Shown here piece after piece: positions 1 to 33,763 of a stretch of DNA of 64,000 nucleotides; the stretch's first letter is position 1; the number at the start of each line of letters is the position of its first letter. The position numbers and the translations under genes were made by a program. The notes below the pieces were generated by a model. It was not told the DNA's origin. It searched no databases and saw nothing but the letters and a program-made list of their open reading frames with translations. The DNA is from a virus. Taxonomy: Duplodnaviria > Heunggongvirae > Uroviricota > Caudoviricetes. The stretch is from positions 69,058 to 133,057 of the IMG/VR virus record IMGVR_UViG_2910903598_000005; one strand, written 5' to 3'.

Positions 1-35
1 CTTTCTTTCTTCATTTTCTTTTTAAGCATATTGGT

Positions 36-73
36 ATTTTAACATACTTTTTGCACCTTGTCAACGGGTGCAA
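36..73 (-). promoter_or_regulatory. Leftward sigma70-like promoter embedded in palindromic operator TTGCACC-N9-GGTGCAA
   Basis: Minus strand reads TTGACA (rc of 59-64), a 17-nt spacer, then TAAAAT (rc of 36-41). The element is flanked by the inverted repeat TTGCACC (51-57) / GGTGCAA (67-73). It is nearly identical to the operator-promoter at 22794-22831. It transcribes out of the window start. Confidence 0.45.
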
Positions 74-119
74 TGAGGGAAGTTAGTCATATTTTTATCT
101 GGGTAGAATGTAATTTTCT

Positions 120-800
120 TTATACTGGATTCTGTACATTTAGAAGAGCTTTTCGTGGGGGAATTTCCATTCTATTGGTAAATTGGTATTGTTGGTAGTG
201 GAAAGGTATAAAATTGATTTATGATCTCTCAGGTGTATTTTTTCATAGGAAATACCATTGTACTTTTTCACGTACAATATATGCTGGCGCAGATAATGGT
301 CTTTTCAATGTAAAGTGTACCCCCTATGCGGTATGAGTGTGTGATATAGGTCATGTGTGCAATTACTTAGTGTACATTTTCAATGTTTAGATGAGAAATC
401 TGGTACTAATTTCCATTTTATATGTTTTGGCGATAACTTGTTAGGGTACGATAGTAGAATTAAAATTTGCTCTCTCAGAGTACATTTTTTAAGGGTATAA
501 TGAAGAGATATTTTTGTCTTAGATCTAAGATGTGTTGTGGCAGATATCTGATTTGGGAATCTGCTGCATGATGGTAGGTGTTGATTATATGTGATTCTCA
601 ATGTTTAGAAGAGTATATCCGTCAAATATGGATTTTGTGGTATGTTATGGAGAGTTGTTAAGGTAGACAGGTAAAATGGATTTATGATTTGTAGAGTGCG
701 ATTTTTTATAGGGTTGAATGAGAGATAAATTTTTGCATAAAAATAATCCCTGCTTACAAGGCTGAGTGTCTGATTGATAGATTGCTTGTGTTCACTATCT
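120..800. repeat. Three degenerate direct repeats of about 220-230 bp (approx 120-340, 375-600, 598-800)
   Basis: Blocks recur: aatgtttagA(a/t)GAG..., then ggta(t/a)aaa(t)tgatttatgat.t.t.agagtg..tttttt.atAGGg, then atgaagagata. The region has no ORF with a ribosome-binding site. Confidence 0.45.
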
Positions 801-1601
801 GTCACAAATCTGGTTGATAGCTCAAGGGATTCCATCTTATAAAATGTTTTGCCTTGCGAGGGATTGTTTTTATTGATACATGGAATACATTGAATGTTCT
901 TGTTCAATGCCATATATATGATTATATCATGTAAGATATTTTATTGCAATGAGAGATTGTTAGTTGTAAAAAATATGCCCAGAGAAATTTCCCTGAGTAT
1001 AAATTCTAATAATGCATTTGCCGATACATTATCTGGGAGTGTCAACTTGAACCCATTAATATCTTTTGTTGTGTCTGTTTTGGCATAGATGCCGAGGGTT
1101 GCCTAATCTCTCAATGGAAGTATAACATGATCTGCTAAGAAATGGAAGCGTGTAAGTGATATTACCTGCGGTAGCAATGTCGAGAAGGAACGCTGACGCT
1201 TATCCTGTCTCTCCTAAACTGCGCAATAAATTGCTTGTTTACTTGGGATAAGAGAGAAGAGGTAATTGTTGTTTTCTTTAGTGTTTATATGTGGTTTCTT
1301 GTAATTTATATATTTTTGTGCATGTCTTTGTTGAGAACCTTCGATATAGGGTGTCACCAATTTCGTAGGCAAAATGGTTAAAGGTATAGTGATTATAAAG
1401 AAAAAGTGACGATTATTTTGTGCGATTGATTGTGGAGATAAAATCGGTTTCGGGCATGATTGATTGAATTTATACATTTTTCTGGGAGTAATTTTGTGCA
1501 AAGGTTGAGATGTGATTTGTGTAGGGATTTACTGGGATTTGTGAGGGTATTAATTGTCAAAATCGTGCTTCGAGAAGAGCCAAAAATCATGTTTCGATAA
1601 A

Positions 1602-1636
1602 TTGTGTAAAACTGTGTAAAATCTGATGTGAAAAAT
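1602..1636. promoter_or_regulatory. Tandem TGTGTAAAA motif (ttgtgtaaaactgtgtaaaat plus a degenerate third copy), a putative regulator site
   Basis: The same twin motif, ttgtgtaaaaagtgtgtaaaat, recurs at 12565-12586 immediately upstream of the hicA promoter. Confidence 0.3.
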
Positions 1637-2049
1637 ATAAGGAATTACTTAGGTTTTTGAGGGCAAAACTTGCATGAAATGGCGCAAAACAAAAACGTGT
1701 CGTCGAGAGAATTGGGGAAAATAAAGGGGAAAATGGGGCTGATTTTTTGAAAAAGTGCGATTTTTGAAAGAAGGGGTTCTGAGAGCGTTGAAAAAAGAGT
1801 AGTAAAATAAACGATTCGCTCGACGACGCCTCCGAAGACATGTTTTCAATTAGCAGAAAGTGTTTATCTAGGAAAGTGTAGGAAATTGCTTGGGAAAGTG
1901 ATGATTTTGTGACAGTGGGTCGAAAAATTTTAGTTGACACGGTGATTGAACACGTCTGTCTAAAATGACAGTTATTTCCAATTATGTAAATGTAAACCTA
2001 CCCCCGCTTTTTGATCTGGTGGTATAAAAATTACATGGTTAAAATTGTA

Positions 2050-2090
2050 AAAATCTATTTGAAATACTATAATTTTATCAAATAGATTTT
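2050..2090. repeat. Perfect 13-bp inverted repeat AAAATCTATTTGA / TCAAATAGATTTT with a 15-nt spacer
   Basis: Read directly: arms at 2050-2062 and 2078-2090. Confidence 0.6.
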
Positions 2091-2259
2091 GTAAATGATT
2101 GTAAATAATTTATAGACAGATCAGGATCAGGAGTGCAAATAATTTCCAACTATTTCCATATAGTATTCAAAACTACATGATAGTGTATCAGATGCTGTAT
2201 AATGTAATATGGTTTACGACGTGTCGTAGTATTCCAAAATAGGACTACTACTTTGCGAC

Positions 2260-2940
2260 TATTTACACAACAGTTGTTGTTTATCATACACTTGTCTATT
2301 ATCCAACACTTTTACATAATGTGTTGGATAGTCTATCCACGCCATCAATACAAAATAAAACTTCACACCACACCACACTAGCAAAACAATATTTTCTTTA
2401 TCACTCACAACAAACCTATAACTTAACTCTATACCAAACCATCCACCCATAGCTTTTATCTATACCACTTGACAGCACAGCCAAACCATGCTACACTACT
2501 AAGCAAACAAGTGTTCGATGTTTGGCAGACTTCCAGCACTTGCAACAAATACACAAATTAAAATATAAACTAAACAAATTAATATATAGCAATCATACAA
2601 GATCAAGCTATCATACATAAATAAATACATATACAAACATAACACGATAGTATATCTTATACTACCACATTAAACTAGATCCAAACTACTATAACTATAC
2701 AAGTGCATATAATAGCATAACATATAACTATACACCATATACACCTATGACATAATATAGATATAGTACATATACATAATACTATATAAGTACACCTACG
2801 GCATAGACAATCATTATATACCAAACTATATCACATATACTCATATATTATATTAATAATACTGTTATATACGTGTTCCTTCTATATAATACAAATAATC
2901 TTTGCATACTTATATTCTAAAGCATTTAAACGACTGTATA
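2260..2940. other. G-depleted, C+A+T-rich tract of about 650 bp with strong strand skew, rich in ATAC/ACATA repeats. Candidate replication origin, terminal region or non-coding RNA locus.
   Basis: The top strand is almost free of G over several hundred bases (for example ccacaccacactagcaaaacaatattttctttatcactcacaacaaacc). Only short spurious ORFs occur. Confidence 0.4.
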
Positions 2941-2975
2941 AGTGTTTATAGGTGCATACGGCAGAGTAAACAGCA

Positions 2976-3227
2976 TTATTGATCTTTGCTGGTGTTATCT
3001 GTATTATCTTTTTGTTTTGGTATAATGTCTAATACTATCTGACCATCAACAGCATTTACATAGTTTAAAAGGGTATTTATAGTCATACTGTTTTTTCCTT
3101 TTAATGTACGACTTACTCCGCTATCTTTTAAATTTAATGCTTTACAAATATCTACTTGTGTATGCTTAGTATTTTTCATATACATTTTAAATAGTGTTAA
3201 GATATCATCTTGTGTATTAATAATCAT
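2976..3227 (-). CDS. XRE-family helix-turn-helix transcriptional regulator (CI/Cro-like repressor)
   Basis: 83 aa. Classic HTH stretch QVDICKALNLKDSGVSRTLKG. Minus-strand ribosome-binding site AAAGGAAG 9 nt upstream. Divergent from operator-bearing promoters. Confidence 0.7.
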   Translation of the reverse strand: MIINTQDDILTLFKMYMKNTKHTQVDICKALNLKDSGVSRTLKGKNSMTINTLLNYVNAVDGQIVLDIIPKQKDNTDNTSKDQ

Positions 3228-3246
3228 ATATTTTTACTTCCTTTTC

Positions 3247-3277
3247 TATATAATAAGTAGCTAACAAAAATGTTAAG
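3247..3277 (-). promoter_or_regulatory. Promoter of the repressor gene (minus strand: TTAACA, 18 nt, TATATA), overlapped by operator copy O1 ctAACAaaaaTGTTaag
   Basis: The -10 is the rc of 3247-3252 and the -35 is the rc of 3271-3276. The operator at 3261-3277 shares the CTAACA-N4/5-TGTTAA half-sites with O2 and O3. Confidence 0.45.
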
Positions 3278-3284
3278 ATTTTTC

Positions 3285-3313
3285 TTGACTTATCCTAACA
3301 AATATGTTAATAT
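3285..3313 (+). promoter_or_regulatory. Rightward promoter P1 (TTGACT, 17 nt, TAATAT) with operator O2 cCTAACAaataTGTTAAt in its spacer
   Basis: TTGACT at 3285-3290, TAATAT at 3308-3313. The imperfect palindrome CTAACA-N4-TGTTAA lies at 3294-3311. Confidence 0.55.
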
Positions 3314-3402
3314 AATAACTGTGATAAGGATATCACATAAATAAATATTGATTATATCTTAACACAAGATATAAAAGGTTTCAAGATAAAACAAAAAAGT
3401 TC

Positions 3403-3431
3403 TTGACAAAACCTAACAAATATGTTAAGAT
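3403..3431 (+). promoter_or_regulatory. Rightward promoter P2 (TTGACA, 17 nt, TAAGAT) with operator O3 cCTAACAaataTGTTAAg in its spacer
   Basis: TTGACA at 3403-3408, TAAGAT at 3426-3431. The flanking sequence ttcttgac...cctaacaaatatgttaa is a near-exact duplicate of P1. Confidence 0.55.
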
Positions 3432-3439
3432 ATAAACAA

Positions 3440-4239
3440 GTTAAGAGATAAGCCACTAAGGGCAAGGATAACAACCGATACTTGAAACCTTGACTTAACC
3501 GCTAATCAATTAACAAGTAACTTATAATCAGACTTTCAAAGGAGTTGAAAAAAATCTATACAATTTAATACATCACTCATTAAGATATGAGTTACTTAAG
3601 TAAAGAAAAAAGAAGATTGCTACAGTCGTGATGATTGCAACAACCTTCATAAGATATTGATATACCTTTACTTCGCAACTAAAGTATATCAAAAATCATT
3701 CTTTGGTGTCAAGTTTCTTTTGGCACATTTCCCAAACGGCTATACACAATTTCAAAGGCTGGTTACGCAAGAAGTAACCAGGGTTGGTTGCATCACCCTA
3801 AAGAGTGAAGCGAAATACGTGTGAACCCTATGATTAATTAGTTGGATCTAAGCCAAAGTATTAACGGCATTCATAGTTCGTTTGAGAAAATCACGCCACG
3901 TTGAAAAAGTAGACACTTATTAGAAGCAACATAGACTTAACATTGTACGGAATGACTAAGCACATAATAACAAGACTTTATACACCTTGTATGTGCTGAT
4001 TAAATCTTTTTTGAATAAAACATCATAGCCAAAGATTAACAATGAATCAACCAGTTATAAAGCTGGTTAAGATATCATAATTCTTTTATAGGTCGATGAT
4101 GGGGTACAAATTAACGCCTTGCATGGTATGCACTCGAAAGACAAGCCACTGTCCATGACACTGTTATTTGTATCCATTCATGAACTTATAAAAAATCCAG
4201 CCTTGAAAAGCTGGTCGTAGTGATAGGAGGTAAACAACT
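3440..4239 (+). ncRNA. Long leader or candidate non-coding RNA region downstream of P1/P2, carrying three ACCAG/CTGGT stem-loops
   Basis: No ORF of 60 aa or more with a ribosome-binding site. Hairpins: CTGGTTACgcaagaaGTAACCAG (3749-3773), AACCAGttataaagCTGGTT (4049-4070), CCAGCcttgaaaaGCTGG (4196-4215). Confidence 0.25.
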
Positions 4240-4422
4240 ATGAAAAGAATGAAATACTATATTGATTATGTCGATAAAAAAACAAATGTGGAACATTCGA
4301 CTAGTTTTGAAACAAAAATTGAATGTTGGGCTTTTATTCGAAAGAATGAAAAGGATATTCATTTAACTAAAAAACCATATACAAGTGAGTTTCTTGATTG
4401 GTTTTTTAGTGAAGGAATATAG
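4240..4422 (+). CDS. hypothetical protein (60 aa)
   Basis: ATG with ribosome-binding site GGAGGT 8 nt upstream. Confidence 0.5.
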   Translation: MKRMKYYIDYVDKKTNVEHSTSFETKIECWAFIRKNEKDIHLTKKPYTSEFLDWFFSEGI

Positions 4423-4527
4423 CGTAAACCACAAAGGCACGATCTAAAAAGATTGTGTCTTTTTTATTTGTAACTATTTAAAATCCCGCTTTTATGTAGG
4501 GTAACTTAAGAAAGAAGGTATATTATT

Positions 4528-4890
4528 ATGAAAAAACTAACAATCGCAGAAAGAAGAGAAAAAGAACTAGATATATTAATTAGTTATAAAACTAGCAACC
4601 CAACACCAGCGGATTATAAAGAAGCACGTAAAATAATGAATTCTTATTATCGTTTGTGTGGATTAGCCAATAGGAATTTAATGCTTACAAACAATGAAAA
4701 TACTTATAATCGAGTAAGCACTCATAAGAGTGAAGAACGAGAAAGTAAATGGTTTAAACGATTACAAAAAACTTTCAAAGAAATCTATGGACTAGATCTT
4801 TTTTATGTGTCATGGTATCCATTAATTGGTGCAAAAGATACAACAAATGGAGGCATACAAGAATTAGTTCATGCTATTTTCTATAATTAG
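4528..4890 (+). CDS. hypothetical protein (120 aa)
   Basis: Ribosome-binding site AGAAAGAAGG. Gene packing with neighbours. Confidence 0.55.
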   Translation: MKKLTIAERREKELDILISYKTSNPTPADYKEARKIMNSYYRLCGLANRNLMLTNNENTYNRVSTHKSEERESKWFKRLQKTFKEIYGLDLFYVSWYPLIGAKDTTNGGIQELVHAIFYN

Positions 4891-4910
4891 ATTTAGAAAG
4901 AAGGTATATT

Positions 4911-5309
4911 ATGAGTATTACATATAACAAAGAAATCAACAAAAAAATCAGAATCTATTTAACGGAATCAATCAAAGATTGGTTAGAAGCACACGAGTAT
5001 GATAAAAAGGACTGTGAAAACAGTCCTTTTCTTACTTACTGGAATATCATAACAGATGAAATCAACGGCGGTATTTATGATAAATACACCAACTTTGAAA
5101 AGTGGAAACATTTCCACATGGGGTTGCGTGGTTTTGGTGCTGATATTTATTGTCTATACAAAGATGATGAAAGAGTATCAAGTATTATCATGAAAGACTG
5201 GACTGGAAGAGAAGTTGTTGACGTGGAAGAAACGGCAAACTTAATGGATTATCTTTGCTTTAGGGAGTTTAGAAAGCTACTTAAAAAAGAAAGTAATATT
5301 ATTATTTAG
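4911..5309 (+). CDS. hypothetical protein (132 aa)
   Basis: Ribosome-binding site AGAAAGAAGG. Confidence 0.55.
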   Translation: MSITYNKEINKKIRIYLTESIKDWLEAHEYDKKDCENSPFLTYWNIITDEINGGIYDKYTNFEKWKHFHMGLRGFGADIYCLYKDDERVSSIIMKDWTGREVVDVEETANLMDYLCFREFRKLLKKESNIII

Positions 5310-5322
5310 GAGGTTATTAATC

Positions 5323-5538
5323 ATGAAAATAATACATACAAACAACGATAGTTTATTTACAATCAAAGAAACGCCAAACGGGATTTTTGTTAAAGGGTTT
5401 GGTAATGACGATAATGAAATGTGTATACCCGATCATGAAATAGTAATGTTGTTAAATTATTACCATAATTGTAAAGAAGGGTTAGAATCACAAGATTATA
5501 TTAACGATAAACCATATACACTAAACGATATTAAATAA
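5323..5538 (+). CDS. hypothetical protein (71 aa)
   Basis: Ribosome-binding site AGGAGG. Confidence 0.5.
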   Translation: MKIIHTNNDSLFTIKETPNGIFVKGFGNDDNEMCIPDHEIVMLLNYYHNCKEGLESQDYINDKPYTLNDIK

Positions 5539-5554
5539 AAGGAGTGTTTGAACG

Positions 5555-5917
5555 ATGGAACAATACTTATATGCTGATGAATACGACGACAATGAGATTA
5601 AAATTCTAACGGTTGGACAACTGTTGGAATTTTTTAATAAATCGGATGATAAAAAGAACGGTTCAAGTTTGGAAAGTTATATTCAAGATAACATAAGAAT
5701 GGATCTTATTGAACCGTTTTGCCCACATAAAGAAGCAGAAACGGTTGTTTGTGATTTACAGCCTTTAGCAAAACAGTATATCTTACAAGAAGCCGAAAAG
5801 GTTTTCAATGGTATATCGTGGGTTGACACTCAAGAAGAACTTGATAACGTGTATCATGAGAAAATCAAGAACTTATATGATACGGTTGATTTTTCAGAGT
5901 TTGTGGCGTATTTATAG
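5555..5917 (+). CDS. hypothetical acidic protein (120 aa)
   Basis: Ribosome-binding site AAAGGAG. Confidence 0.55.
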   Translation: MEQYLYADEYDDNEIKILTVGQLLEFFNKSDDKKNGSSLESYIQDNIRMDLIEPFCPHKEAETVVCDLQPLAKQYILQEAEKVFNGISWVDTQEELDNVYHEKIKNLYDTVDFSEFVAYL

Positions 5918-6012
5918 ATTGAATATTATAGACAAGTCAAAACACGGCTTGTCTATTTTGTTGAACTTATAAATAGAAAGAAAGTCCCGTAAAGGGCAGA
6001 AAGAAGGAAATT

Positions 6013-6264
6013 ATGACGAAATACAGAGTGATTTTTGGTTATTTCAGCGAACTTGTAACAGTTGACGAACCTACAACGGACTACGGCACAATTTTAGATC
6101 TTGCAATCGATCAACTAGAATCTGATGGAAATATGGGTGTATTTGTTTCAGATGAAGATATAGAACGTGATGGGATCACTGATGATATGTACATTACTGG
6201 TGGAAATCACGGACTCAATTTATATCATGGTGGTAATTTTATGATAGAAAGAGTTGACGAGTAG
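6013..6264 (+). CDS. hypothetical protein (83 aa)
   Basis: Ribosome-binding site AGAAGGAA. Confidence 0.5.
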   Translation: MTKYRVIFGYFSELVTVDEPTTDYGTILDLAIDQLESDGNMGVFVSDEDIERDGITDDMYITGGNHGLNLYHGGNFMIERVDE

Positions 6265-6279
6265 GAGGAGGAAAGAACA

Positions 6280-6471
6280 ATGGAAAAAATACAATTACAT
6301 AAACCACAACCGATAGATATAGCCGTTGCGATTGTAGGAATTGCAACGGCTATTATTGCGTTTATAAAGATCCCGCAAGCCTTTATATTAGAAGCGTTGT
6401 TGGTAATGATTACCGCTGTCTATATGCTTGCTTGCGTTGGATTTTTTGATGATGATACAGATACAGAATAA
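6280..6471 (+). CDS. small membrane protein (63 aa, two predicted transmembrane helices)
   Basis: Ribosome-binding site AGGAGGAGG. Hydrophobic core IDIAVAIVGIATAIIAF...LLVMITAVYMLACVGFF. Confidence 0.5.
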   Translation: MEKIQLHKPQPIDIAVAIVGIATAIIAFIKIPQAFILEALLVMITAVYMLACVGFFDDDTDTE

Positions 6472-6490
6472 GAAAGAAGGTAAAAACACA

Positions 6491-7105
6491 ATGAGAACAA
6501 AACAGAACAAAACAATCAAGATCTTATTAGCCGTAGCACTCATGTTTACAGCTTTTTTAATGCTGGGAAATACAGTACACGCAAAGACAAAAAAGAAACA
6601 CGTCACGTACAGAACTATAAACGGCATTTATAACAGTGACGGTACAATTGATACGGCAGATGGTTATTGCTGGAAAGTTCGCAAGGAATCATATGCCTAT
6701 CCAGGGACAACGCCCGTAACTGTAAAATTCAATACTCATAGAACAAAAGATAAGCTCGATGATAGCATTATAAAGATCGTAGCAAAGAATAGAAATATCC
6801 AGCTTGTAAACGATTATATACGCAGAAATTACGATCTAAACGCCTATAAGGTAAAGTATATCAACACTAGAAAATTAACGGATAAAATGATCCGTGAACG
6901 TGCTGTAAAGCATACTATTTACGTGGAAATTATCAAAAGTGTTTCTGCTGGTGGTAGACATGGAACGTATGGAAAAAACTACTACATTGCCTATAACAAA
7001 CGTGTACGCAAAGGAAAGCACGTAACAAGCTATTGTGTATGGAATCCTTGCAATAGTTACTGCGATGACGTAGAAGCCGTGGCAGATAATGGAAAAATCA
7101 GATAA
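6491..7105 (+). CDS. secreted protein with N-terminal signal peptide and Cys-rich C-terminus (204 aa)
   Basis: Start MRTKQNKTIKILLAVALMFTAFLMLGNTVHA. Ribosome-binding site AGAAGG. The longer ORF in the track begins inside the upstream gene. Confidence 0.55.
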   Translation: MRTKQNKTIKILLAVALMFTAFLMLGNTVHAKTKKKHVTYRTINGIYNSDGTIDTADGYCWKVRKESYAYPGTTPVTVKFNTHRTKDKLDDSIIKIVAKNRNIQLVNDYIRRNYDLNAYKVKYINTRKLTDKMIRERAVKHTIYVEIIKSVSAGGRHGTYGKNYYIAYNKRVRKGKHVTSYCVWNPCNSYCDDVEAVADNGKIR

Positions 7106-7123
7106 GAAGGAAGGTTGGAAATC

Positions 7124-7435
7124 ATGAAAGATTATAGAACGATTATTGATAATGATACACTAGAAATGTTTTGCACGATCTTAGATGATTACTTAGAAGA
7201 TAGTTTTGAAGGCTGTATGTTAGATAACTATTTCTTTGATATTGGAAATAATAACATGAGATGGGGCAGAATCAAGCTAAGAAAGTATGTCATGATCTTA
7301 GAAAAGGGCTTGAATGAATGGTCTAGTGTCAACGAATTGTATATGACAGATAGCTATGAAAAATATAAAGAACTCTATGATGCTTACTATAAGGATCGTG
7401 AAGAGTATGAGAAAGAAGAATTAGAAACGGCATAG
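7124..7435 (+). CDS. hypothetical protein
   Basis: ATG after ribosome-binding site AAGGAAGG. The TTG at 7115 is an alternative start. Confidence 0.5.
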   Translation: MKDYRTIIDNDTLEMFCTILDDYLEDSFEGCMLDNYFFDIGNNNMRWGRIKLRKYVMILEKGLNEWSSVNELYMTDSYEKYKELYDAYYKDREEYEKEELETA

Positions 7436-7452
7436 AATAGGAGTGTTGGAAA

Positions 7453-7791
7453 ATGAAAGAAAGAGAATTAAGAACTGCAAAGAAGTTTGGCATTTTAGAT
7501 AAATGTAAATCGTTGGAAAAAGATCTTTTACAAATTAATAGAGTTGAAGCGATAGAATTTGATCTTAACGGATTTTACAGCGATATATATCAAGTAATTA
7601 TCTTAGCAAGATATGATATTCCAATAACTTTAGAAAACTATTTTGAAACACGAAAAGAAGTTGTGAAAAATATTATCAAGGTTGCTGGGAATTATGGATT
7701 AACAAGAACAGAAGATTCTATAGAGGACTACGGAACGACATTTTATTTTGTGTTTCGTTGTTCTAAAGAATGGAAAAATAAAGAAAACTAA
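7453..7791 (+). CDS. hypothetical protein (112 aa)
   Basis: Ribosome-binding site TAGGAGTG. Confidence 0.5.
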   Translation: MKERELRTAKKFGILDKCKSLEKDLLQINRVEAIEFDLNGFYSDIYQVIILARYDIPITLENYFETRKEVVKNIIKVAGNYGLTRTEDSIEDYGTTFYFVFRCSKEWKNKEN

Positions 7792-7812
7792 GAAAAAAGG
7801 AAGGTACACAAA

Positions 7813-8049
7813 ATGGAAATTTCAAAGAAACAAACTTATGAACAGTATCAGTTACAATGGATGATTGATCACGGTTTTTCATTAAAAGATTTAATGGAAT
7901 CTATGGACAGATATTTTATGAACGATGGAGATTCTATCCAGGAATTGTTTGAGGATTGGGAGTGTAACTGTGGATTTGGCGGTATATTGTATGCTTGTAA
8001 AGATGAAGCAATAGATTGTGGCGAATGTATAGAAGATGAGGAAGAATAG
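7813..8049 (+). CDS. hypothetical acidic Cys-containing protein (78 aa)
   Basis: Ribosome-binding site AAGGAAGG. Confidence 0.5.
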   Translation: MEISKKQTYEQYQLQWMIDHGFSLKDLMESMDRYFMNDGDSIQELFEDWECNCGFGGILYACKDEAIDCGECIEDEEE

Positions 8050-8059
8050 GAGAATAATT

Positions 8060-8332
8060 ATGGAAATTTTAAAGATGACAAGAACAAACATGGTAGTGAT
8101 TCAGACAGTGGAAAAGGAAGAACGTAACACTTTTGACATTGGAAAAATCAGAGTCGCAGCCTTGCCACCGATCGCAAAGAAAGATCTTATCGCAGAACTT
8201 AAAAGCAAGGGCTTCTGCGATGGAATGATCCATACGGTATTACAATGCAAGCTGGAAGATCTAAACGGATATGTGAACGTATGGAAGTATGTAGCGTATA
8301 TCTTAGCCGTAGAACTGATGGAAAGATTATAG
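8060..8332 (+). CDS. hypothetical protein
   Basis: ATG after ribosome-binding site TAGGAGAA. The upstream ATG at 8036 overlaps the preceding gene. Confidence 0.45.
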   Translation: MEILKMTRTNMVVIQTVEKEERNTFDIGKIRVAALPPIAKKDLIAELKSKGFCDGMIHTVLQCKLEDLNGYVNVWKYVAYILAVELMERL

Positions 8333-8347
8333 AAGGGAGCTGGAAAT

Positions 8348-8467
8348 ATGGGAACTTCTTTTAAATTTGTAGATAGTGTAGGCAATATTTATTGGTATAA
8401 ATTTAATTCAGTTGACAAAGCTCGTCATTTTGCATATGTTCATGGTTTATGTTTCTTAGGTAGTTAG
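8348..8467 (+). CDS. small hypothetical protein (39 aa)
   Basis: Ribosome-binding site GAAGGGAG. Below the ORF-track cutoff. Confidence 0.3.
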   Translation: MGTSFKFVDSVGNIYWYKFNSVDKARHFAYVHGLCFLGS

Positions 8468-8494
8468 CAATGGCATAGAAGGAAGGTGGAAATT

Positions 8495-8683
8495 ATGATA
8501 ACAAGAAATACATATCCCGATGGTAGAACGGAAATTTTCTGTACAAATCCAGATGAATACTGGGATCTTAGTATTGAGTACGATCTTGAAGATTGCGGGA
8601 TGAGTGGAAAATATTATGGGTGGGGCTGGAGTCGTGATAACAAACGTAATGTTGATGTTTATTCTAAAAATTTAGAAGAATAG
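8495..8683 (+). CDS. hypothetical protein
   Basis: ATG in the recurring context AAGGTGGAAATTATG. Confidence 0.5.
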   Translation: MITRNTYPDGRTEIFCTNPDEYWDLSIEYDLEDCGMSGKYYGWGWSRDNKRNVDVYSKNLEE

Positions 8684-8699
8684 AAAGTAGGTGGAAAGA

Positions 8700-8954
8700 A
8701 TGAGTCGTAGAACGACAATGACAGCATTAGCGTGCCACGTAGAACGAAAGTATAATACTTTATACTTCACAGAAAATCCTCCGAACGCTGGAATTGATGA
8801 TAGCTTGCATGGATATAGATATTTCTTATTATATAAGAATACGTTCGGAATTTTTCGGAAATATAGAACGCAAGAAGAAGCAATTAACGGCATGACGGAA
8901 ATTTTAAGAGAAGATCCAACTAATCTATTCAATTTCTCTATGTGTCGTGCATAG
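8700..8954 (+). CDS. hypothetical protein
   Basis: ATG after AGGTGGAAAGA. Confidence 0.5.
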   Translation: MSRRTTMTALACHVERKYNTLYFTENPPNAGIDDSLHGYRYFLLYKNTFGIFRKYRTQEEAINGMTEILREDPTNLFNFSMCRA

Positions 8955-9250
8955 CTTATTACATAGCCAATTAAAGGCTTTTACTGTCTGTAATGAAGCA
9001 GACTACACCTTAACGGAAAGACTCGACTATTGAAGCTAATAGTTACGTTAAACGAACGGAATGACTGTACTATTGATTGCTAGTAGTGACGTATTGGAAC
9101 GGAAAAACGGTGGCGTATGGTAGATAAAAGAGTGCTTTTATCGGTGGGTTCAATTTCCACTCCGCCACTTCACACGATGGAAATTATCGTGTATAATATA
9201 AGAGAACAGTTAACTTAAAATCTGACCGCAAGGCAGTCAGTTCCTAAAAA
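8955..9250 (+). ncRNA. Structured intergenic region or possible small RNA, with an extended -10 promoter for the next gene
   Basis: Several stem-loops: CTATTgaagctAATAG, GATAAAAGagtgCTTTTATC (9123-9142), CTGACcgcaaggcaGTCAG. A TGTATAAT extended -10 at about 9191-9199. Confidence 0.25.
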
Positions 9251-9264
9251 GGATGGTGGAAATT

Positions 9265-10017
9265 ATGAAGTACAAAGAACTTATTATGACAGAACAATCT
9301 ACTGGAAAGAAAACGGTGCTTTATGAGAATGAAGAGTTCAAGAACTTTGATTATCTAAGTAATCTTATGATGAAGTATGGGTATAGCGAGAATGATTATG
9401 AAAACCTTAATGATGATATTATGAGTGGAATTGATCACTTTGATGTTATGGAATATGGAAACACAATCGAAACACTTTTATTTGAATATATTAAATATCC
9501 TGAGTGCTTTGAGATCCATAAGATTCCTGAAATGCCTGATGGATTTACAAAAATCACTTATCATGGTTATACAATCAAATTAAATCAATATAACTGTGAT
9601 TGGTACTACGGGAAGAGTTCTGACGGAAGTTTATGTGTGACAAGCACTAAGTACGATTGGAAAAAATACGACAAGATCAAGATACTAGTACAACGTGATT
9701 ATTACGGAAAATTTGAAGAAGAATGGTGGAATATTGTTGACGACAACGGAAATCTTATAGTAAAAATCATGGATGATGATATGGAAAAAGCTGTCGCAGA
9801 TATTAAAGATAATCGTGATCATGCAATGGATTTTGAAGATTGGCTATTATCAACCGATGCAGAAAAGTGGGACGTTGAATGGACTCAAGAAAATTATGAT
9901 AAAGATAGGGCAGATGAGATTATCAGAAATGCTTATAATGACTACCTTAATATGCACTGGAAATATTCATGGTTGGTTAGAATAGTAGCGGAAAATATGA
10001 TCAAGAAGGGAATGTAG
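9265..10017 (+). CDS. hypothetical protein (about 250 aa)
   Basis: ATG in context GGATGGTGGAAATTATG. Long ORF. Confidence 0.6.
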   Translation: MKYKELIMTEQSTGKKTVLYENEEFKNFDYLSNLMMKYGYSENDYENLNDDIMSGIDHFDVMEYGNTIETLLFEYIKYPECFEIHKIPEMPDGFTKITYHGYTIKLNQYNCDWYYGKSSDGSLCVTSTKYDWKKYDKIKILVQRDYYGKFEEEWWNIVDDNGNLIVKIMDDDMEKAVADIKDNRDHAMDFEDWLLSTDAEKWDVEWTQENYDKDRADEIIRNAYNDYLNMHWKYSWLVRIVAENMIKKGM

Positions 10018-10027
10018 GTGGTAAATT

Positions 10028-10306
10028 ATGTTTGATTATGAAAGAAAAGAATTTGAAAAGAATGTGGAAATTTTAATGGAAGATCGTTGTACACGAAAAG
10101 AAGCGGAACGATTGTTAAAAAATAGCACAGTAGTATATGAATTGAAAGATTTTACAGAACATTTTGGTCAGTTTATGGAAGATTGGCAAGAAGACAAGGA
10201 AGGAATTGAAGCATATAAGAAGATGCTTGAAACTAAAAAACCGATGAGTGGATATAGTTTTGTAGAATATAATGGAAAAGAATATTTGATTAATTATTGT
10301 TTATAG
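10028..10306 (+). CDS. hypothetical protein (92 aa)
   Basis: Ribosome-binding site GTAGGTGG. Confidence 0.5.
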   Translation: MFDYERKEFEKNVEILMEDRCTRKEAERLLKNSTVVYELKDFTEHFGQFMEDWQEDKEGIEAYKKMLETKKPMSGYSFVEYNGKEYLINYCL

Positions 10307-13558: not shown

Positions 13559-13719
13559 AATGGAAAATATCATTTGATATGAATCATTCTGACACACCAG
13601 AAATTGACGAACTAGAATTAGAGTGAATACAAATTAATATAGGTAACTAGGACACTTATGGAAAATTCCAGAGTGTCTTTTTTAATACAAATTTTTACAT
13701 AAGAAAGGTGGAATTGATT

Positions 13720-15072
13720 ATGAATTTAAACGAAATGGAAATTCCTTGCGATCCAATTTTGGATAAAGCAAAGAGAGATGAACTGGTACAGAACACAGAA
13801 CTTTTGAAACAGGTTACAATCAAGCCGATCCCGTGGCTTCCTGGACGAGATTATATTACTACAGAACAGGTAGCACGATTTTTTGATGGAGATGTTGACG
13901 AGGTTAAGAGATTGTGTACGAAGTATCGCAAAGAGTTTTTAGACGATGGAATGGAAGTTAAGACAATACAAGAAATCATTGACGGTCAGGACGCAACAAC
14001 GGAAAAACAGAAGGGAAGAATCATTGTAACGTATCCGAACGGATTGAATATCTCATTCGGCTATAAGGGTGCTAAGGTGTTTACTCTTAAATGTTTGATC
14101 AGATTGTCTTTACTGATGGAAACTTCAAGCCTTGCTGAGAACGTAAGACATTATGTTTTTATTAATGAGTACATCACGATGGAAGAGCAGAGAGAACAAG
14201 AGCAGGTAGAGGCAGGTGTGCAGCTTGTAGACACAACGGAAATTTTAGGTAGAAGAATTGACTTATACAGAAGCATTGAAGATCCGTTATTCTTGGCAAG
14301 AGATGTTGCAGAATGGATTGATTATAGTAAACGTCCTGATGGAAGTTATAAAACAGATATGATGTTACAGGCGATTGATTCAGAGGAAAAATATAAGACC
14401 AAAATCTTAACCGCCAATAATGTTGGCGGGTCAAATTTAGGTCAGATTGATTCTACGGGAAAGACTATTAATCCATTTTGGTTTCTGACAGAAGATGGAC
14501 TCTATGAAGTATGTATGCAGTCACGCAAACCGATTGCAAAGCAGATGAAGAAACAGATTAAAGAATATCTTAGAAACATTCGTAAGACAGGCGGTGCGGT
14601 TGACTTTGGAAAAGAGTCACAGTTCATTGAACACTACTTCCCGTCATTTTCTGAGGATGTCAAGCTTGCTATGGTAACCGATCTGCGAACACAAAACAAA
14701 GAACTCAAAGAAGAGAATCAGAAGTTACAGAATGATAATAAGCTATTAGCAGCGGAAATTTTGACGTGGGATGATCGCAATAAGATGAACGCTGGAATTA
14801 GGAAGTTGGCTGCCGTTACAGGAACACAATTCTCTGTTATGTGGAACGAGCTTTATAAGAACTTGCAATACAAATATCAGATTGATGTTAAGAAACGTGG
14901 TAAGAAACCATTTCTTCAGTGGATTCAAGAACATGAATGGGATAAGGTAATGAAAGTCTTTTGTGCAATGTGTGAAGCTAGAAACCTATCTCCAACAGAT
15001 ATGTTCCAACAGACAGCACCAGTGGAAAATTTATATGATAATGAAGATGAGGATGATGAAGTATGGAATTAA
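13720..15072 (+). CDS. Bro-N/KilA-N-domain protein (antirepressor-like), about 450 aa
   Basis: Contains ARDVAEWIDYS...EDGLYEVCMQSRKPIAKQMKKQIKEYLRNIRKTGG (Bro-N pattern) and an N-terminal ORF6N-like segment. ATG in context AAAGGTGGAATTGATTATG. Confidence 0.55.
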   Translation: MNLNEMEIPCDPILDKAKRDELVQNTELLKQVTIKPIPWLPGRDYITTEQVARFFDGDVDEVKRLCTKYRKEFLDDGMEVKTIQEIIDGQDATTEKQKGRIIVTYPNGLNISFGYKGAKVFTLKCLIRLSLLMETSSLAENVRHYVFINEYITMEEQREQEQVEAGVQLVDTTEILGRRIDLYRSIEDPLFLARDVAEWIDYSKRPDGSYKTDMMLQAIDSEEKYKTKILTANNVGGSNLGQIDSTGKTINPFWFLTEDGLYEVCMQSRKPIAKQMKKQIKEYLRNIRKTGGAVDFGKESQFIEHYFPSFSEDVKLAMVTDLRTQNKELKEENQKLQNDNKLLAAEILTWDDRNKMNAGIRKLAAVTGTQFSVMWNELYKNLQYKYQIDVKKRGKKPFLQWIQEHEWDKVMKVFCAMCEARNLSPTDMFQQTAPVENLYDNEDEDDEVWN

Positions 15073-15630: not shown

Positions 15631-16725
15631 ATGAACCTACAGTTAGTAAAAACGGAAAATTTTAACGATATATCGTGTGATTTTTATAGTGCTGAGGACG
15701 ATATTTGGATGACAAGAAAGCAGATCGGAGAGGCACTGGAATATGGAGATCCACAGAAAGCAATTGATAATTTGCACAATAGATATAGAGATAGACTGGA
15801 TAAATATTCAGTTACCCTCAAACTGGGGGCTACTGATAACAAGAAGTATGACACTACACTCTATAATGAACGTGGCGTGATGGAAATTTGTAGATGGAGC
15901 AGACAGCCAAAGGCAAACGCCTTCATGGATTGGGTTTGGGACGTGATTTCCTCTTATCGTCATGGAAATTTAAAAACAGGAACTCCTGTAACAACAGTAG
16001 AACAGTTTCTTACAGAACAGACAGAACTTATGAAGCAGATGGAAAAGAATAATGAACGTCTGTATAAAGTTACTATTAAGGGTTTCAATCAGTTAGCAGA
16101 CATTGTGAAAGAGATGAAAGCCGAACGGAAAGAATTGTATAAGCAGATCAGCAAACCAACAAAAGATATTCCAGTAGTAGATACTGAAAGTGTTATCGCA
16201 GAATATAAGCTCAATGAATGGAAGTCCAATGTCTATTCAATCATTGATGATATTCTAAAAGAATCTGATGAATTAGGGACTACTACAAGAGATATTCTCA
16301 GAGAAGCATACAGGTATCTTACTAACACATATGGAATTGTGTGGGAGCAGGATCGGAAAGAATACAAAGAGAAATATAATATCGGGGAAAGAGGTAATGT
16401 ACCAACGATTGATCTTTGCTATGACAAGTATCCTGATCTGCTAGTCAATTCATTGGAAAAACTTCTGCGACAGTTCAGGAAAGAAAATGCACAGCCTGAT
16501 TGGGAAGAAATGAAGATCAAAATTACCAATTATGCCAATCATATTGGAAATAAATCTAAAGGTGGAACGTCTGTTTATCGGAAAATCTACACTAAGATGA
16601 CAGAGAATGGAGTTAACTGGGATGAATATGCTCATGGCTTGTCTAAATCTCAGCTTATTAAAACTAATGCAACTTTGTACAACAGATTTTACGAAGCAGC
16701 GGTGGAAATTATTTCAGAAGAATAG
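15631..16725 (+). CDS. Bro-N/AntA-like antirepressor-family protein (364 aa)
   Basis: N-terminus NFNDISCDFYSAEDDIWMTRKQIGEALEYGDPQKAI...NERGVMEICRWSRQPKANAFMDWVWDVI matches the Bro-N pattern. Ribosome-binding site AAAGGAAG. Confidence 0.6.
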   Translation: MNLQLVKTENFNDISCDFYSAEDDIWMTRKQIGEALEYGDPQKAIDNLHNRYRDRLDKYSVTLKLGATDNKKYDTTLYNERGVMEICRWSRQPKANAFMDWVWDVISSYRHGNLKTGTPVTTVEQFLTEQTELMKQMEKNNERLYKVTIKGFNQLADIVKEMKAERKELYKQISKPTKDIPVVDTESVIAEYKLNEWKSNVYSIIDDILKESDELGTTTRDILREAYRYLTNTYGIVWEQDRKEYKEKYNIGERGNVPTIDLCYDKYPDLLVNSLEKLLRQFRKENAQPDWEEMKIKITNYANHIGNKSKGGTSVYRKIYTKMTENGVNWDEYAHGLSKSQLIKTNATLYNRFYEAAVEIISEE

Positions 16726-33625: not shown

Positions 33626-33763
33626 GGAAACATAGCTCAGTTGGTAGAGCAGGCAATACATAAACATTCATTTTTCTACCTCCATATAAGTATTTTTATT
33701 TATTTACATTTAATTTTCATCACATATAAATTGCCGACACAGGTTCGATTCCTGTTGTTTCCA
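33626..33763 (+). tRNA. tRNA-like gene interrupted by an insertion of about 75 nt in the anticodon loop (identity undetermined)
   Basis: Perfect 7-bp acceptor stem GGAAACA/TGTTTCC. D-arm GCTC-AGTTGGTA-GAGC. Anticodon stem GGCAA ... TTGCC separated by about 74 nt. T-arm ACAGG-TTCGATT-CCTGT. Discriminator A. Terminator immediately downstream. Confidence 0.55.

What the first reader, a model, noticed from the sequence alone, without database searches (positions are those of the whole stretch)
2976..3431. Repressor/operator switch: XRE-HTH gene with three copies of the half-palindrome CTAACA-N4/5-TGTTAA overlapping its own promoter and two duplicated rightward promoters
What the sequence shows: operator copies lie at 3261-3277 (over the repressor promoter -35), 3294-3311 (in the spacer of TTGACT-17-TAATAT) and 3412-3429 (in the spacer of TTGACA-17-TAAGAT). 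The two rightward promoter regions are near-identical duplicates (ttcttgac...cctaacaaatatgttaa).

Inference: an autoregulated repressor gating early rightward transcription, which runs through an 800-nt structured leader into the gene block from 4240. Taken together with the tyrosine recombinase at 20696, the phage may be temperate, or may be a virulent derivative retaining a CI-like switch.
Basis: partly seen in the sequence, partly recalled or inferred. Interest (0 to 1): 0.5.

Follow-up and report, generated by a model that had tools for sequence, protein, structure and literature searches.

The report
Swappable repressor–operator switch in large phage
A tiny DNA-binding protein of a ~160-kb uncultivated gut (probably clostridial) phage sits next to three copies of its likely binding site, placed inside two strong early promoters; related phages carry other versions of the protein with matching versions of the site, so this is a real but ordinary kind of genetic switch.

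Summary
TAACA-N4-TGTTA occurs exactly three times in 64 kb, all within 170 bp (0.25 expected). Two copies lie in the 17-bp spacers of two near-consensus, duplicated rightward promoters. The 83-aa minus-strand ORF is a HipB-like XRE helix-turn-helix protein.

The decisive evidence is comparative. Phages with near-identical flanks carry HTH alleles only 27-51% identical. Each allele comes with its own palindrome, repeated in register in both promoters, and the recognition helix tracks the half-site. The HTH and its operators therefore form an exchangeable specificity cassette.

The repressor promoter it placed over O1 is weak, would clip the ribosome-binding site and is not conserved. A conserved leftward promoter at 3384->3356, face to face with P_R1, fits better. 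The protein is also not CI-like, since it has no cleavage domain.

The ~800-nt leader is structured (covarying hairpins, no Rfam match), modular, and contains a conserved antisense promoter and terminators.

Lifestyle stays open. No integrated copy was found, but the nearest cultured relatives are plasmid prophages. Verdict: new member of a known kind, moderate interest.

The parts
2976..3227 (-). Gene for an 83-aa HipB-like XRE helix-turn-helix protein, the putative repressor. It is the only minus-strand gene between about 60 and 64000.
   Evidence: ORF list. Weak Pfam HTH_37 match, 8e-4. PHROG 'HTH DNA binding protein' 9e-8. Family profile against PDB: 2a6c 2e-7, HipB 4e-7. AF2 model pLDDT 87 with four helices. 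Foldseek best match HipB, TM 0.7-0.8.
3237..3242 (-). Shine-Dalgarno sequence AGGAAG, 9 nt upstream of the HTH start codon.
   Evidence: Read from the sequence.
3261..3276 (.). Operator O1, CTAACA-AAAA-TGTTAA. It lies in the 5' UTR of the HTH gene, about +80 from the predicted P_L start. It is not inside a conserved promoter.
   Evidence: In L033 the flanks differ but the palindrome is kept and becomes perfect (TTAACAAAAATGTTAA). O1 is absent from the L035-type module.
3285..3313 (+). Promoter P_R1, TTGACT-17-TGT-TAATAT. Predicted start near 3320.
   Evidence: Conserved in L033, L035 and L075, each with its own operator in the spacer.
3295..3310 (.). Operator O2, CTAACA-AATA-TGTTAA. It fills the P_R1 spacer and overlaps the extended -10.
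3320..3337 (+). Perfect palindrome TGTGATA-AGGA-TATCACA at +1 of P_R1. Most likely a 5'-terminal RNA hairpin.
   Evidence: Unique in the window. Identical in L035 and L075. L033 has a 2-nt insertion in the loop. L045, L039 and L038 carry different hairpins (CTGTCAA...TTGACAG) at the same place.
3356..3384 (-). Promoter P_L, TTGAAA-17-TGT-TAAGAT. It is the best candidate promoter for the HTH gene. Predicted start near 3349, face to face with P_R1 (starts about 29 bp apart) and back to back with P_R2.
   Evidence: It shares a 17-nt stretch with the -10 region of P_R2 (I15). Conserved in L033 with a variable spacer. Positional equivalent TTGATT-17-TGA-TACAAT in L035 and L075.
3403..3431 (+). Promoter P_R2, TTGACA-17-TGT-TAAGAT. 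Predicted start near 3438.
   Evidence: The same promoter frame occurs with 55 different spacers in IMG/VR.
3413..3428 (.). Operator O3, CTAACA-AATA-TGTTAA, in the P_R2 spacer and overlapping the extended -10.
3434..3450 (+). Conserved initial transcribed sequence AAACAAGTTAAGAGATA. It is also the right-hand joint of the exchangeable HTH/operator cassette.
   Evidence: 81 IMG/VR stretches carry promoter plus motif, with 68 different downstream sequences. In L040, identity to the window jumps to 93-100% exactly from 3434 on.
3438..4239 (+). About 800 nt of non-coding, structured, modular leader between P_R2 and the first rightward gene.
   Evidence: No conserved ORF: the 56-aa ORF called in relatives is stopped after 9 codons here. 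MFE z = -3.9. No Rfam match. Modules reassort among relatives.
3612..3648 (+). Leader hairpin with an invariant inner stem AGUC/GAUU and an invariant loop GUGAU.
   Evidence: 5 of 13 pairs show compensatory changes among 6 distinct sequences.
3683..3712 (-). Leftward promoter inside the leader, TTGACA-18-TGA-TATACT (11 of 12 consensus positions). It would make an RNA antisense to the first ~240 nt of the leader, and could read on toward the HTH gene.
   Evidence: The -35 and -10 are invariant and the spacer variable in the window, L035, L033b and L005.
3959..4012 (+). Hairpin followed by a run of six T: a terminator or attenuator that separates the leader's 5' part from its conserved 3' element.
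   Evidence: Read from the sequence. Relatives have different hairpins plus a T-run at the same place; the one in L035 is canonical (GGTATCA-TTTTT-TGATACT followed by T8).
4087..4190 (+). Long irregular hairpin, the 3' leader element.
   Evidence: RNAalifold gives 52 pairs, 5 with changes on both sides, drawn from two haplotypes. A covariance model finds it only in this phage lineage.
4433..4472 (+). Intrinsic terminator after the first small gene (4240-4422). In relatives that lack this gene, the terminator directly follows the leader.
2469..2497 (+). Conserved rightward promoter TTGACA-17-TGC-TACACT, downstream of the HTH gene and pointing into its 3' end. Its transcript would be antisense to the HTH mRNA.
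   Evidence: The -35, the -10 and 45 nt downstream are invariant, with a variable spacer, in more than 15 loci carrying different HTH alleles.

Best explanation
The 83-aa protein is a dimeric XRE-type helix-turn-helix repressor. Its operators are the three TAACA-N4-TGTTA palindromes.

O2 and O3 occupy the 17-bp spacers, and overlap the TGn extended -10 elements, of two tandem, near-consensus host-sigma-A-type promoters, P_R1 and P_R2. A bound dimer would therefore keep RNA polymerase off both promoters. That would shut down rightward transcription of the structured leader and of the early gene block, which in relatives begins with anti-defence genes such as ardA.

The repressor's own promoter is most likely P_L (3384->3356). 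It lies between the two rightward promoters, face to face with P_R1. The proposed logic has three steps:
1. While P_R1 fires, it interferes with P_L.
2. Once the repressor silences P_R1, P_L is freed.
3. O2 and O1, which lie downstream of the P_L start, act as roadblocks that cap repressor synthesis (autoregulation).

The gene and its operators form one cassette. It is exchanged among otherwise near-identical ~160-kb phages, with breakpoints just past the stop codon on the left and at the conserved transcribed motif AAACAAGTTAAGAGA on the right. This gives each phage its own repressor/operator specificity, as in heteroimmune temperate phages.

What is shown:
- the sites, the promoters and the protein fold;
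- the co-variation of HTH allele and operator;
- the cassette boundaries.

What is inferred:
- binding and repression;
- the transcription start points;
- interference and roadblock;
- that the biological role is immunity or maintenance of a carried (probably episomal) state.
For: Sites and statistics.

Protein.

Allele-specific operators, each duplicated in register in both promoters at spacings of 74-120 bp, or 380 bp where a gene is inserted:
- window and L033a: cTAACA-AATA-TGTTAa
- L035 and L071: CATAAC-ATAAAA-GTTATG
- L075, L077 and L085: CATAGC-ATAAAA-GATATG
- L045, L060 and L072: GTAGCA-AATA-TGCTAC
- L033b: GATAGCA-AATA-TGTTATC
- L040, L043, L044, L050, L092 and L116: TATATCA-AATA-TGATATA
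- L111: AAGCG-AAA-CGCTT

Recognition helix tracks half-site:
- RPQ[VI][ST][KR] goes with TAGCA
- SQPNIAR goes with TATCA
- [DQ]S[GA]VSR goes with TAACA

The cassette is exchanged as a unit:
- The L040 leader is 93-100% identical to the window from 3434 on, while its HTH is 27% identical.
- L008 has the same HTH (98%) but an unrelated leader.
- The left flank 2000-2900 is 80-99% identical in phages carrying other alleles.

P_L is conserved in three allele types.

The operators sit in optimal 17-bp spacers of strong promoters. By general knowledge, that geometry means repression, not MerR-type activation.

Temperate-like context:
- tyrosine recombinase;
- two Ant-like Bro-N proteins;
- the DNA polymerase III alpha protein is closest among cultured phages to Clostridium phage c-st and phiCD211;
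- a 689-aa protein is 57% identical to one on a 136-kb C. difficile plasmid;
- such big C. difficile phages are extrachromosomal circles (abstract of PMC5786514).
Against: - There is no binding or expression data. Start points and promoter activity are predictions in an AT-rich region where consensus matches are common.
- Allele/operator co-variation is partly confounded by physical linkage inside one cassette.
- The protein has no inducible cleavage domain. No cro/cox-like HTH was detected among the first ten rightward genes.
- No integrated copy, and no copy in an isolate genome, was found. The leader pattern gave 0 hits. A phage-specific protein gave one hit, at 43% identity, on a 146-kb contig of a Clostridia MAG.
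- All related contigs look like free 150-205-kb genomes.
- The recombinase lies 17 kb away inside the rightward operon, not next to the switch.
- Spacing between the two promoter operators is not kept in helical phase across alleles, so cooperative looping is not supported.
Confidence: 0.6

Rival explanations
1. The binding and repression are the same, but the phage is strictly lytic. In this reading the HTH is a timer or damper of very strong early promoters. Anti-CRISPR-associated (Aca) repressors and the C-proteins of restriction-modification systems work this way: transcription bursts on entry and is then shut off. Allele diversity would then reflect escape from decoy repressors made by hosts or competing elements, rather than prophage immunity.
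For: The controlled operon in relatives starts with anti-defence genes: ArdA, AcrIC5 and DpnD-PcfM. The protein is small, with no sensor or cleavage domain. C.Esp1396I-type controller proteins are among the structural matches. No integrated or isolate-borne copy was found. The same promoter plus transcribed motif drives small acidic, ArdA-like or HTH first genes in many unrelated 30-60-kb elements.
Against: Known Aca genes lie downstream in the acr operon, not divergently upstream (general knowledge). No recognised anti-defence gene was detected in this window's own operon. Exchange of specificity cassettes on a constant backbone is the classic signature of immunity in temperate phages. A recombinase, Ant-like proteins and plasmid-prophage relatives are present.
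Confidence: 0.3
2. The repeats are not protein operators. They would be copies of one duplicated promoter, or they act at the RNA or DNA level or bind a host factor. The neighbouring HTH would regulate something else.
For: P_R1 and P_R2 are plainly duplicates. The right half-site TGTTA coincides with the TGn extended -10. TGTTAAGAT also occurs at P_L and inside the HTH gene.
Against: O1 keeps the palindrome, and improves it, in L033 while losing the -10-like flank. The left half-site TAACA has no promoter role. Every other allele has a different palindrome in the same register at both promoters. The HTH is the only gene in the type-A cassette.
Confidence: 0.05
3. The HTH is a HipB- or HigA-type antitoxin of a toxin-antitoxin pair, and the palindromes are the operator of that pair.
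For: The best sequence and structure matches are HipB and HigA antitoxins.
Against: No toxin gene is adjacent. Downstream of the gene lie 2.9 kb without an ORF, and upstream lies the switch. The operators sit in promoters that face away from the gene.
Confidence: 0.03

Closest known systems
Immunity regions of heteroimmune lambdoid phages (lambda, 434, P22, HK022): CI/Cro with O_R1-3
   Same: An HTH repressor lies next to multiple palindromic operators that overlap the early lytic promoter(s). The repressor gene is transcribed in the opposite direction. The repressor-plus-operator cassette is exchanged among phages with otherwise similar genomes, and recognition-helix changes match operator changes.
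   Different: The protein is 83 aa, with no C-terminal oligomerisation or S24 autocleavage domain. No cro gene was detected. There are two tandem rightward promoters, each with one operator in its spacer, rather than three adjacent operators shared by divergent P_R and P_RM. The repressor promoter faces P_R1 instead of diverging from it.
Developmental switches of P2 and 186 (C/Cox; CI/Apl) with face-to-face promoters
   Same: The predicted lytic promoter (P_R1) and repressor promoter (P_L) converge, with starts about 29 bp apart, so transcriptional interference can form part of the switch. P2 C is likewise a small repressor (~99 aa) without a cleavage domain. (General knowledge.)
   Different: No Cox/Apl-like first gene is present. 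A second, non-convergent early promoter (P_R2) carries the main leader. The operators are inverted repeats, not the direct repeats of P2 C. There is no sequence relationship.
Anti-CRISPR-associated repressors (Aca1, Aca2 and others) and C-proteins of restriction-modification systems (e.g. C.Esp1396I)
   Same: These are roughly 70-90-aa XRE HTH dimers that bind inverted repeats in or next to a strong promoter and damp it after an initial burst. The controlled operon in relatives holds ArdA and AcrIC5. C.Esp1396I is among the Foldseek matches.
   Different: The gene is divergent and upstream, not inside the regulated operon. No acr or R-M gene was detected in this window. There are three sites spread over two promoters.
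HipB antitoxin (PDB 5k98, 4yg1, 8ezt)
   Same: It is the best fold and profile match: a four-helix XRE domain followed by a short C-terminal segment aligned to the strand HipB uses for dimerisation.
   Different: There is no HipA or other toxin partner. The operators differ (HipB uses TATCC-N8-GGATA, from general knowledge). The setting is phage early-promoter control.
Large clostridial plasmid prophages (Clostridium phage c-st; phiCD211, phiCDIF1296T and phiCD5763 of C. difficile)
   Same: They are the nearest cultured relatives by DNA polymerase III alpha (33%) and a 689-aa protein (56-57%). They have large genomes and are carried as extrachromosomal circles (PMC5786514 abstract; c-st from general knowledge).
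   Different: The relationship is distant. No homologue of this HTH exists in the phage or plasmid collections, and there is no nucleotide similarity. A carried state for the present phage has not been shown.

Membership tests
XRE / Cro-CI-type helix-turn-helix proteins (HipB-like subgroup) | Four- to five-helix bundle with a helix-turn-helix, recognisable by profile and by fold. | tested here: met
   Family profile against PDB: 2a6c 2e-7, HipB 4e-7 to 4e-6, HigA2 5e-5. AF2 model pLDDT 87 with helices at 6-19, 24-31, 35-42 and 50-59. Foldseek match to HipB at TM 0.69-0.80. Pfam HTH_37 alone is below its cut-off (19.6 against 27 bits).
XRE / Cro-CI-type helix-turn-helix proteins (HipB-like subgroup) | Dimerisation through a C-terminal beta-strand, as in HipB. 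| tested here: inconclusive
   The segment GQIVLDIIP aligns to the HipB/2a6c C-terminal strand. The monomer model shows no regular structure after residue 60. No multimer prediction was available.
Lambda CI-type lysogeny repressors | C-terminal oligomerisation and S24 self-cleavage domain (RecA-inducible). | tested here: not met
   The protein is 83 aa. After the HTH domain there are only about 20 polar residues, and no peptidase family matches.
Lambda CI-type lysogeny repressors | Divergent P_RM/P_R sharing three adjacent operators, with cro as the first rightward gene. | tested here: not met
   The operators are 34 and 118 bp apart, and two lie in separate tandem promoters. The best repressor promoter converges on P_R1. 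The first ten rightward ORFs have no HTH family match.
Lambda CI-type lysogeny repressors | Maintains a prophage (integrated or episomal). | not testable with these tools
   No integrated copy was found in GTDB species genomes. Related contigs are 150-205 kb and phage-like throughout the flanks seen. An episomal state cannot be judged from the assemblies available here.
P2/186-type switch | Face-to-face lytic and repressor promoters with overlapping transcripts. | tested here: inconclusive
   Consensus promoters P_R1 (start ~3320) and P_L (start ~3349) converge. The arrangement is kept in the window, L033a, L035 and L075 allele types, but not in the L040 and L060 types. The start sites are predicted, not measured.
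P2/186-type switch | Cox/Apl-type small HTH as first lytic gene, repressing the repressor promoter. | tested here: not met
   No HTH was detected in ORFs 4240-10306. A relative (L033) has an HTH_3 gene further along the operon.
Aca (anti-CRISPR-associated) autorepressors | Small HTH encoded within or downstream of the acr operon that it represses. | tested here: not met
   The gene is upstream and on the opposite strand.
Aca (anti-CRISPR-associated) autorepressors | The controlled operon encodes anti-CRISPR or anti-defence proteins. | tested here: inconclusive
   None was recognised in this window. ArdA, AcrIC5 and DpnD-PcfM are present in the equivalent operons of relatives.
HipBA / HigBA toxin-antitoxin systems | Adjacent toxin gene co-transcribed with the antitoxin. 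| tested here: not met
   No ORF lies next to the HTH on its strand. The 2.9 kb downstream have no credible ORF.
Known RNA families (Rfam 15) for the leader | Covariance-model match at or near the gathering score. | tested here: not met
   No match in window 1-4600 at E <= 1, and none in four relatives at E <= 0.5.

The most novel reading that the evidence does not exclude
The repressor may gate more than a set of protein genes. Downstream of P_R2 lies a previously undescribed, modular set of structured RNAs. It comprises about 570 nt from P_R2 to a terminator, a covarying 3' hairpin element, a conserved internal antisense promoter, and a conserved 5' motif ACAAGUUAAGAGA shared by more than 50 different repressible promoters in gut phages and other mobile elements.

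These RNAs could be functional in their own right. Candidate roles are a put/nut-like processive antitermination device needed to read through the terminators of a gene block longer than 60 kb, an antisense-controlled attenuator as in the P1/N15 immunity systems, or an anti-defence RNA. The shared motif could also serve as the recombination joint that lets immunity cassettes move between phages.
Probability: 0.3. Interest if true: 0.65.

Novelty: new member of a known kind. Interest (0 to 1): 0.4.

Why it matters
The switch gives a concrete, testable regulatory handle on an uncultivated group of ~150-200-kb gut phages of probable Clostridia hosts. There are at least seven natural repressor/operator specificities on one backbone, which amounts to a ready-made set of orthogonal repressor-promoter pairs for Gram-positive anaerobes.

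If the repressor maintains a carried state, these large phages would join c-st and phiCD211 as plasmid-like prophages. That would change how their abundance in gut viromes is read.

The kind of system, a small HTH repressor with palindromic operators inside early promoters, is textbook. A specialist would not be surprised by the switch itself. The less expected parts are the unannotated structured leader and the widely shared transcribed motif.

Tried and rejected
- **Nucleotide search of 1-8000 against INPHARED phages:** no match. tblastn of the HTH against phages and plasmids: no match.
- **Word-indexed protein search:** found only 85-93% identical relatives. The exhaustive HMMER search was needed and gave just 11 representatives.
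- **Structure prediction with the full 13-row alignment:** It was repeated with 11 rows.
- **Leader DNA pattern in genome contigs:** 0 hits.
- **Palindrome 3320-3337 as a second protein operator:** considered, including a CRP-like TGTGA...TCACA site. Judged less likely than an RNA 5' hairpin, because L033 has a 2-nt loop insertion and other alleles have unrelated hairpins there.
- **The 55/56-aa ORFs in the leader:** rejected as genes. The frame called in relatives is stopped after 9 codons here.
- **K-turn or C/D-box reading of the GAUGA motifs in the leader:** could not be fitted to the consensus and was dropped.
- **boxA-like reading of the reverse complement of ACAAGTTAAGAGA:** noted but not supported by anything else.
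- **Covariance model of the 3' leader element:** found no copies outside this lineage.
- **Global pairwise identity profiles to the right of the switch:** uninformative for loci with other leader types because of indels.
- **Literature search for the motif:** 0 papers.
Full report
**1. Observation**

Read directly, the window has CTAACAAAAATGTTAA at 3261-3276 and CTAACAAATATGTTAA at 3295-3310 and 3413-3428. The symmetric core is TAACA-N4-TGTTA in all three copies. This core occurs exactly three times in 64 kb on both strands, against 0.25 expected, and no shuffle of 100 reaches three. With one mismatch allowed the count is at chance level (8 against 5.25). The sites are therefore confined to this 170-bp stretch.

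The two rightward promoters are as described. TTGACT-17-TAATAT lies at 3285-3313 and TTGACA-17-TAAGAT at 3403-3431, each with a TGn extended -10. They lie in a 38-nt duplication that is 84% identical. Promoter-like matches as a class are not enriched in this AT-rich DNA (21 against 15.8 +/- 4.7), so the case for these promoters rests on conservation, described below.

**2. The protein**

The ORF 2976-3227(-) encodes 83 aa and has an AGGAAG Shine-Dalgarno sequence 9 nt upstream of the ATG. It is the only minus-strand gene in a window where everything from 4240 to 64000 runs rightward.

Pfam alone is weak (HTH_37, 19.6 bits against a cut-off of 27). The family is very small:
- two close clusters in the word-indexed search;
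- 11 representatives in an exhaustive HMMER search of 1.8 billion proteins.

A profile of the family matches solved XRE proteins and HipB/HigA antitoxins (2a6c 2e-7, HipB 4e-7). An AlphaFold2 model (pLDDT 87) has four helices, and its best Foldseek matches are HipB chains at TM 0.7-0.8. R-M controller proteins are also listed.

The protein is therefore a HipB-like XRE helix-turn-helix domain with a short polar tail. It has no sensor or cleavage domain.

**3. Comparative evidence that the palindromes are its operators**

Nine IMG/VR contigs of 160-165 kb carry the same gene at 96-100% identity, with an invariant switch.

More distant relatives were reached in three ways: through the HMMER hits, through a conserved leader motif, and through a promoter-plus-transcribed-motif pattern. 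They show the same layout: a leftward HTH gene, two tandem rightward promoters and a long leader. The HTH alleles are only 27-51% identical, and each comes with its own palindrome:

| Loci | Palindrome |
|---|---|
| window, L033a | cTAACA-AATA-TGTTAa |
| L035, L071 | CATAAC-ATAAAA-GTTATG |
| L075, L077, L085 | CATAGC-ATAAAA-GATATG |
| L045, L060, L072 | GTAGCA-AATA-TGCTAC |
| L033b | GATAGCA-AATA-TGTTATC |
| L040, L043, L044, L050, L092, L116 | TATATCA-AATA-TGATATA |
| L111 | AAGCG-AAA-CGCTT |

In every case the palindrome in the P2 spacer is repeated, with 0-4 mismatches (0-1 in most alleles) and in the same register, in the upstream promoter. The spacing is 74-120 bp, or 380 bp where a small gene is inserted.

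The recognition helix follows the half-site:
- RPQ[VI][ST][KR] goes with TAGCA;
- SQPNIAR goes with TATCA;
- [DQ]S[GA]VSR goes with TAACA.

O1 is present only in the window/L033 type. In L033 its flanks have changed, but the palindrome is kept and becomes perfect.

**4. The cassette is exchanged as a unit**

- L040 has a leader 93-100% identical to the window from position 3434 onward, but an HTH only 27% identical.
- L008 has the same HTH (98%) but an unrelated leader up to about 4034.
- The left flank 2000-2900 is 80-99% identical in phages with other alleles, and identity falls at the HTH gene.

This is the pattern of heteroimmune phages. It is partly confounded by linkage, because operators and gene travel together. 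However, the HTH is the only gene in the type-A cassette, and similar recognition helices in otherwise divergent proteins go with similar half-sites.

**5. The repressor's own promoter**

That -10 lacks the invariant A2, or the invariant T6 if the spacer is read as 18. Its start would fall inside the Shine-Dalgarno sequence. In L033 the -10 reads TCTACA.

A better candidate is TTGAAA-17-TGT-TAAGAT at 3384->3356:
- It shares 17 nt with the -10 region of P_R2 (I15).
- It is conserved in L033 with a different spacer.
- It has positional equivalents (TTGATT-17-TGA-TACAAT) in the L035 and L075 alleles.

Its predicted start (~3349) faces that of P_R1 (~3320). A second group of alleles (L040, L060, L033b) instead has the HTH promoter back to back with P1.

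The perfect palindrome TGTGATA-AGGA-TATCACA at 3320-3337 lies at +1 of P_R1. L033 has a 2-nt insertion in its centre, and other alleles have unrelated hairpins at the same position. This fits a 5'-terminal RNA hairpin better than a second operator.

**6. Mechanism proposed**

A dimer on O2 and O3 occludes two strong promoters with optimal 17-bp spacers. While P_R1 is active it interferes with the convergent P_L. Once P_R1 is repressed, P_L is freed. O2 (+46) and O1 (+80), downstream of the P_L start, limit it at high repressor levels. All of this is inference from geometry.

Operator spacing is not kept in helical phase across alleles, so looping is not supported.

**7. The leader**

From 3438 to 4239 there is no conserved ORF. 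The region folds better than shuffles (z = -3.9) and contains:
- a hairpin at 3612-3648 with an invariant GUGAU loop, where 5 of 13 pairs are compensated;
- a hairpin plus T-run at 3959-4012, whose sequence differs but whose form is kept in relatives;
- a long hairpin at 4087-4190 with 5 compensated pairs, drawn from two haplotypes.

A leftward promoter at 3712->3683 matches 11 of 12 consensus positions. Its hexamers are invariant and its spacer variable across types.

Nothing matches Rfam. The modules reassort among relatives, and the 3' element is confined to this lineage. The function is unknown. Antitermination, attenuation or a free-standing RNA are all possible.

**8. A widely shared promoter frame**

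The pattern TTGACA-N17-TAnnnT-nnAn-ACAAGTTAARAGA matches 81 IMG/VR stretches, with 55 different spacers, many of them palindromic, and 68 different downstream sequences. These include 30-60-kb elements where a short A/C-rich 5' UTR leads straight into small acidic, ArdA-like or HTH genes.

Only 15 of these have an upstream HTH of this family. The motif marks the right-hand joint of the cassette. No paper contains it.

**9. Lifestyle**

For a temperate or carried state:
- cassette exchange;
- a tyrosine recombinase (Pfam 1e-13, PHROG integrase 1e-29);
- two Ant-like Bro-N proteins;
- nearest cultured relatives by DNA polymerase III alpha are c-st and phiCD211 (33%);
- a 689-aa protein is 56-57% identical to one in a C. 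difficile phage-plasmid;
- such phages are extrachromosomal circles (PMC5786514 abstract).

Against, or neutral:
- no integrated copy in 185,579 species genomes;
- all contigs look like free 150-205-kb genomes;
- no cleavage domain in the repressor;
- the recombinase lies far from the switch;
- relatives' early operons are anti-defence operons, which fits an Aca- or C-protein-like timer equally well.

I put the immunity reading slightly ahead of the lytic-timer reading. The core claim, that the HTH represses P_R1 and P_R2 through these sites, is much firmer than either.

**10. Verdict**

It is wrong on the repressor's promoter and on 'CI-like' as a family assignment, and it remains open on lysogeny.

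The system is a new member of a known kind. Two side products are more novel than the switch itself: an unannotated structured leader and a shared transcribed motif.

Noticed in passing
window 64-2975: About 2.9 kb has no credible ORF. The + strand is G/T-rich to ~2000 and then C/A-rich and almost G-free at 2400-2900. Degenerate repeats lie at 209-249, 455-495 and 672-712. The same gene-free gap exists in relatives. The next leftward genes include a 285-aa protein (L001 9958-10815) with weak PHROG matches to replication initiators (4.7e-5). This may be a replication origin, or a further set of RNAs.
   Followed up: partly
window 2469-2497 (+): The rightward promoter TTGACA-17-TGC-TACACT has invariant hexamers, 45 invariant downstream nucleotides and a variable spacer in more than 15 loci with different HTH alleles. 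It points through a G-poor 470-nt tract into the 3' end of the HTH gene, so it would make an antisense transcript.
   Followed up: partly
window 3683-3712 (-): A near-consensus leftward promoter lies inside the leader and is conserved across leader types. It would produce RNA antisense to the 5' part of the leader and could read into the switch.
   Followed up: partly
window 3434-3450; loci L049-L118: The transcribed motif ACAAGTTAAGAGA directly follows a consensus promoter in 81 IMG/VR stretches, from contigs of about 4 to 379 kb, with 55 different and often palindromic spacers. Its function is unknown. It could be a 5' stabiliser, a factor binding site or a recombination joint.
   Followed up: partly
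L033 3480-4015 (and window-type switch at L033 4622-5112): One relative carries two switch cassettes in tandem. A second HTH, 46% identical, has its own pair of operator-bearing promoters inserted into the leader.
   Followed up: partly
L045 3691-3861, L039, L038: In some alleles a conserved ~56-60-aa gene (MSYHSRQDIERDNYEREYYTL...) sits between P1 and P2, behind the 5' hairpin. It is absent from the window, where only the hairpin and P_L remain.
   Followed up: no
window 33626-33763 (+): Rfam reports a tRNA match of 46 bits spanning 138 nt, but ARAGORN finds no tRNA in the window. It may be an intron-containing or tRNA-like element.
   Followed up: partly
window 36-64 (-) and 1-25: The strong leftward promoter TTGACA-17-TGT-TAAAAT has a gene starting at about 23 and running off the left edge. 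This is the start of the leftward gene block.
   Followed up: no
window 13708-15072, 15631-16725, 20696-21646, 31286-32746: These regions encode two Bro-N / Ant-like proteins, a tyrosine recombinase in the middle of the rightward operon, and an SPFH/flotillin-like protein.
   Followed up: no
window 4197-4214 and 4047-4070: Hairpins preceded by A-runs on the + strand score as minus-strand intrinsic terminators. They may insulate the leader from antisense transcription, or they may simply be part of the + strand RNA structure.
   Followed up: no
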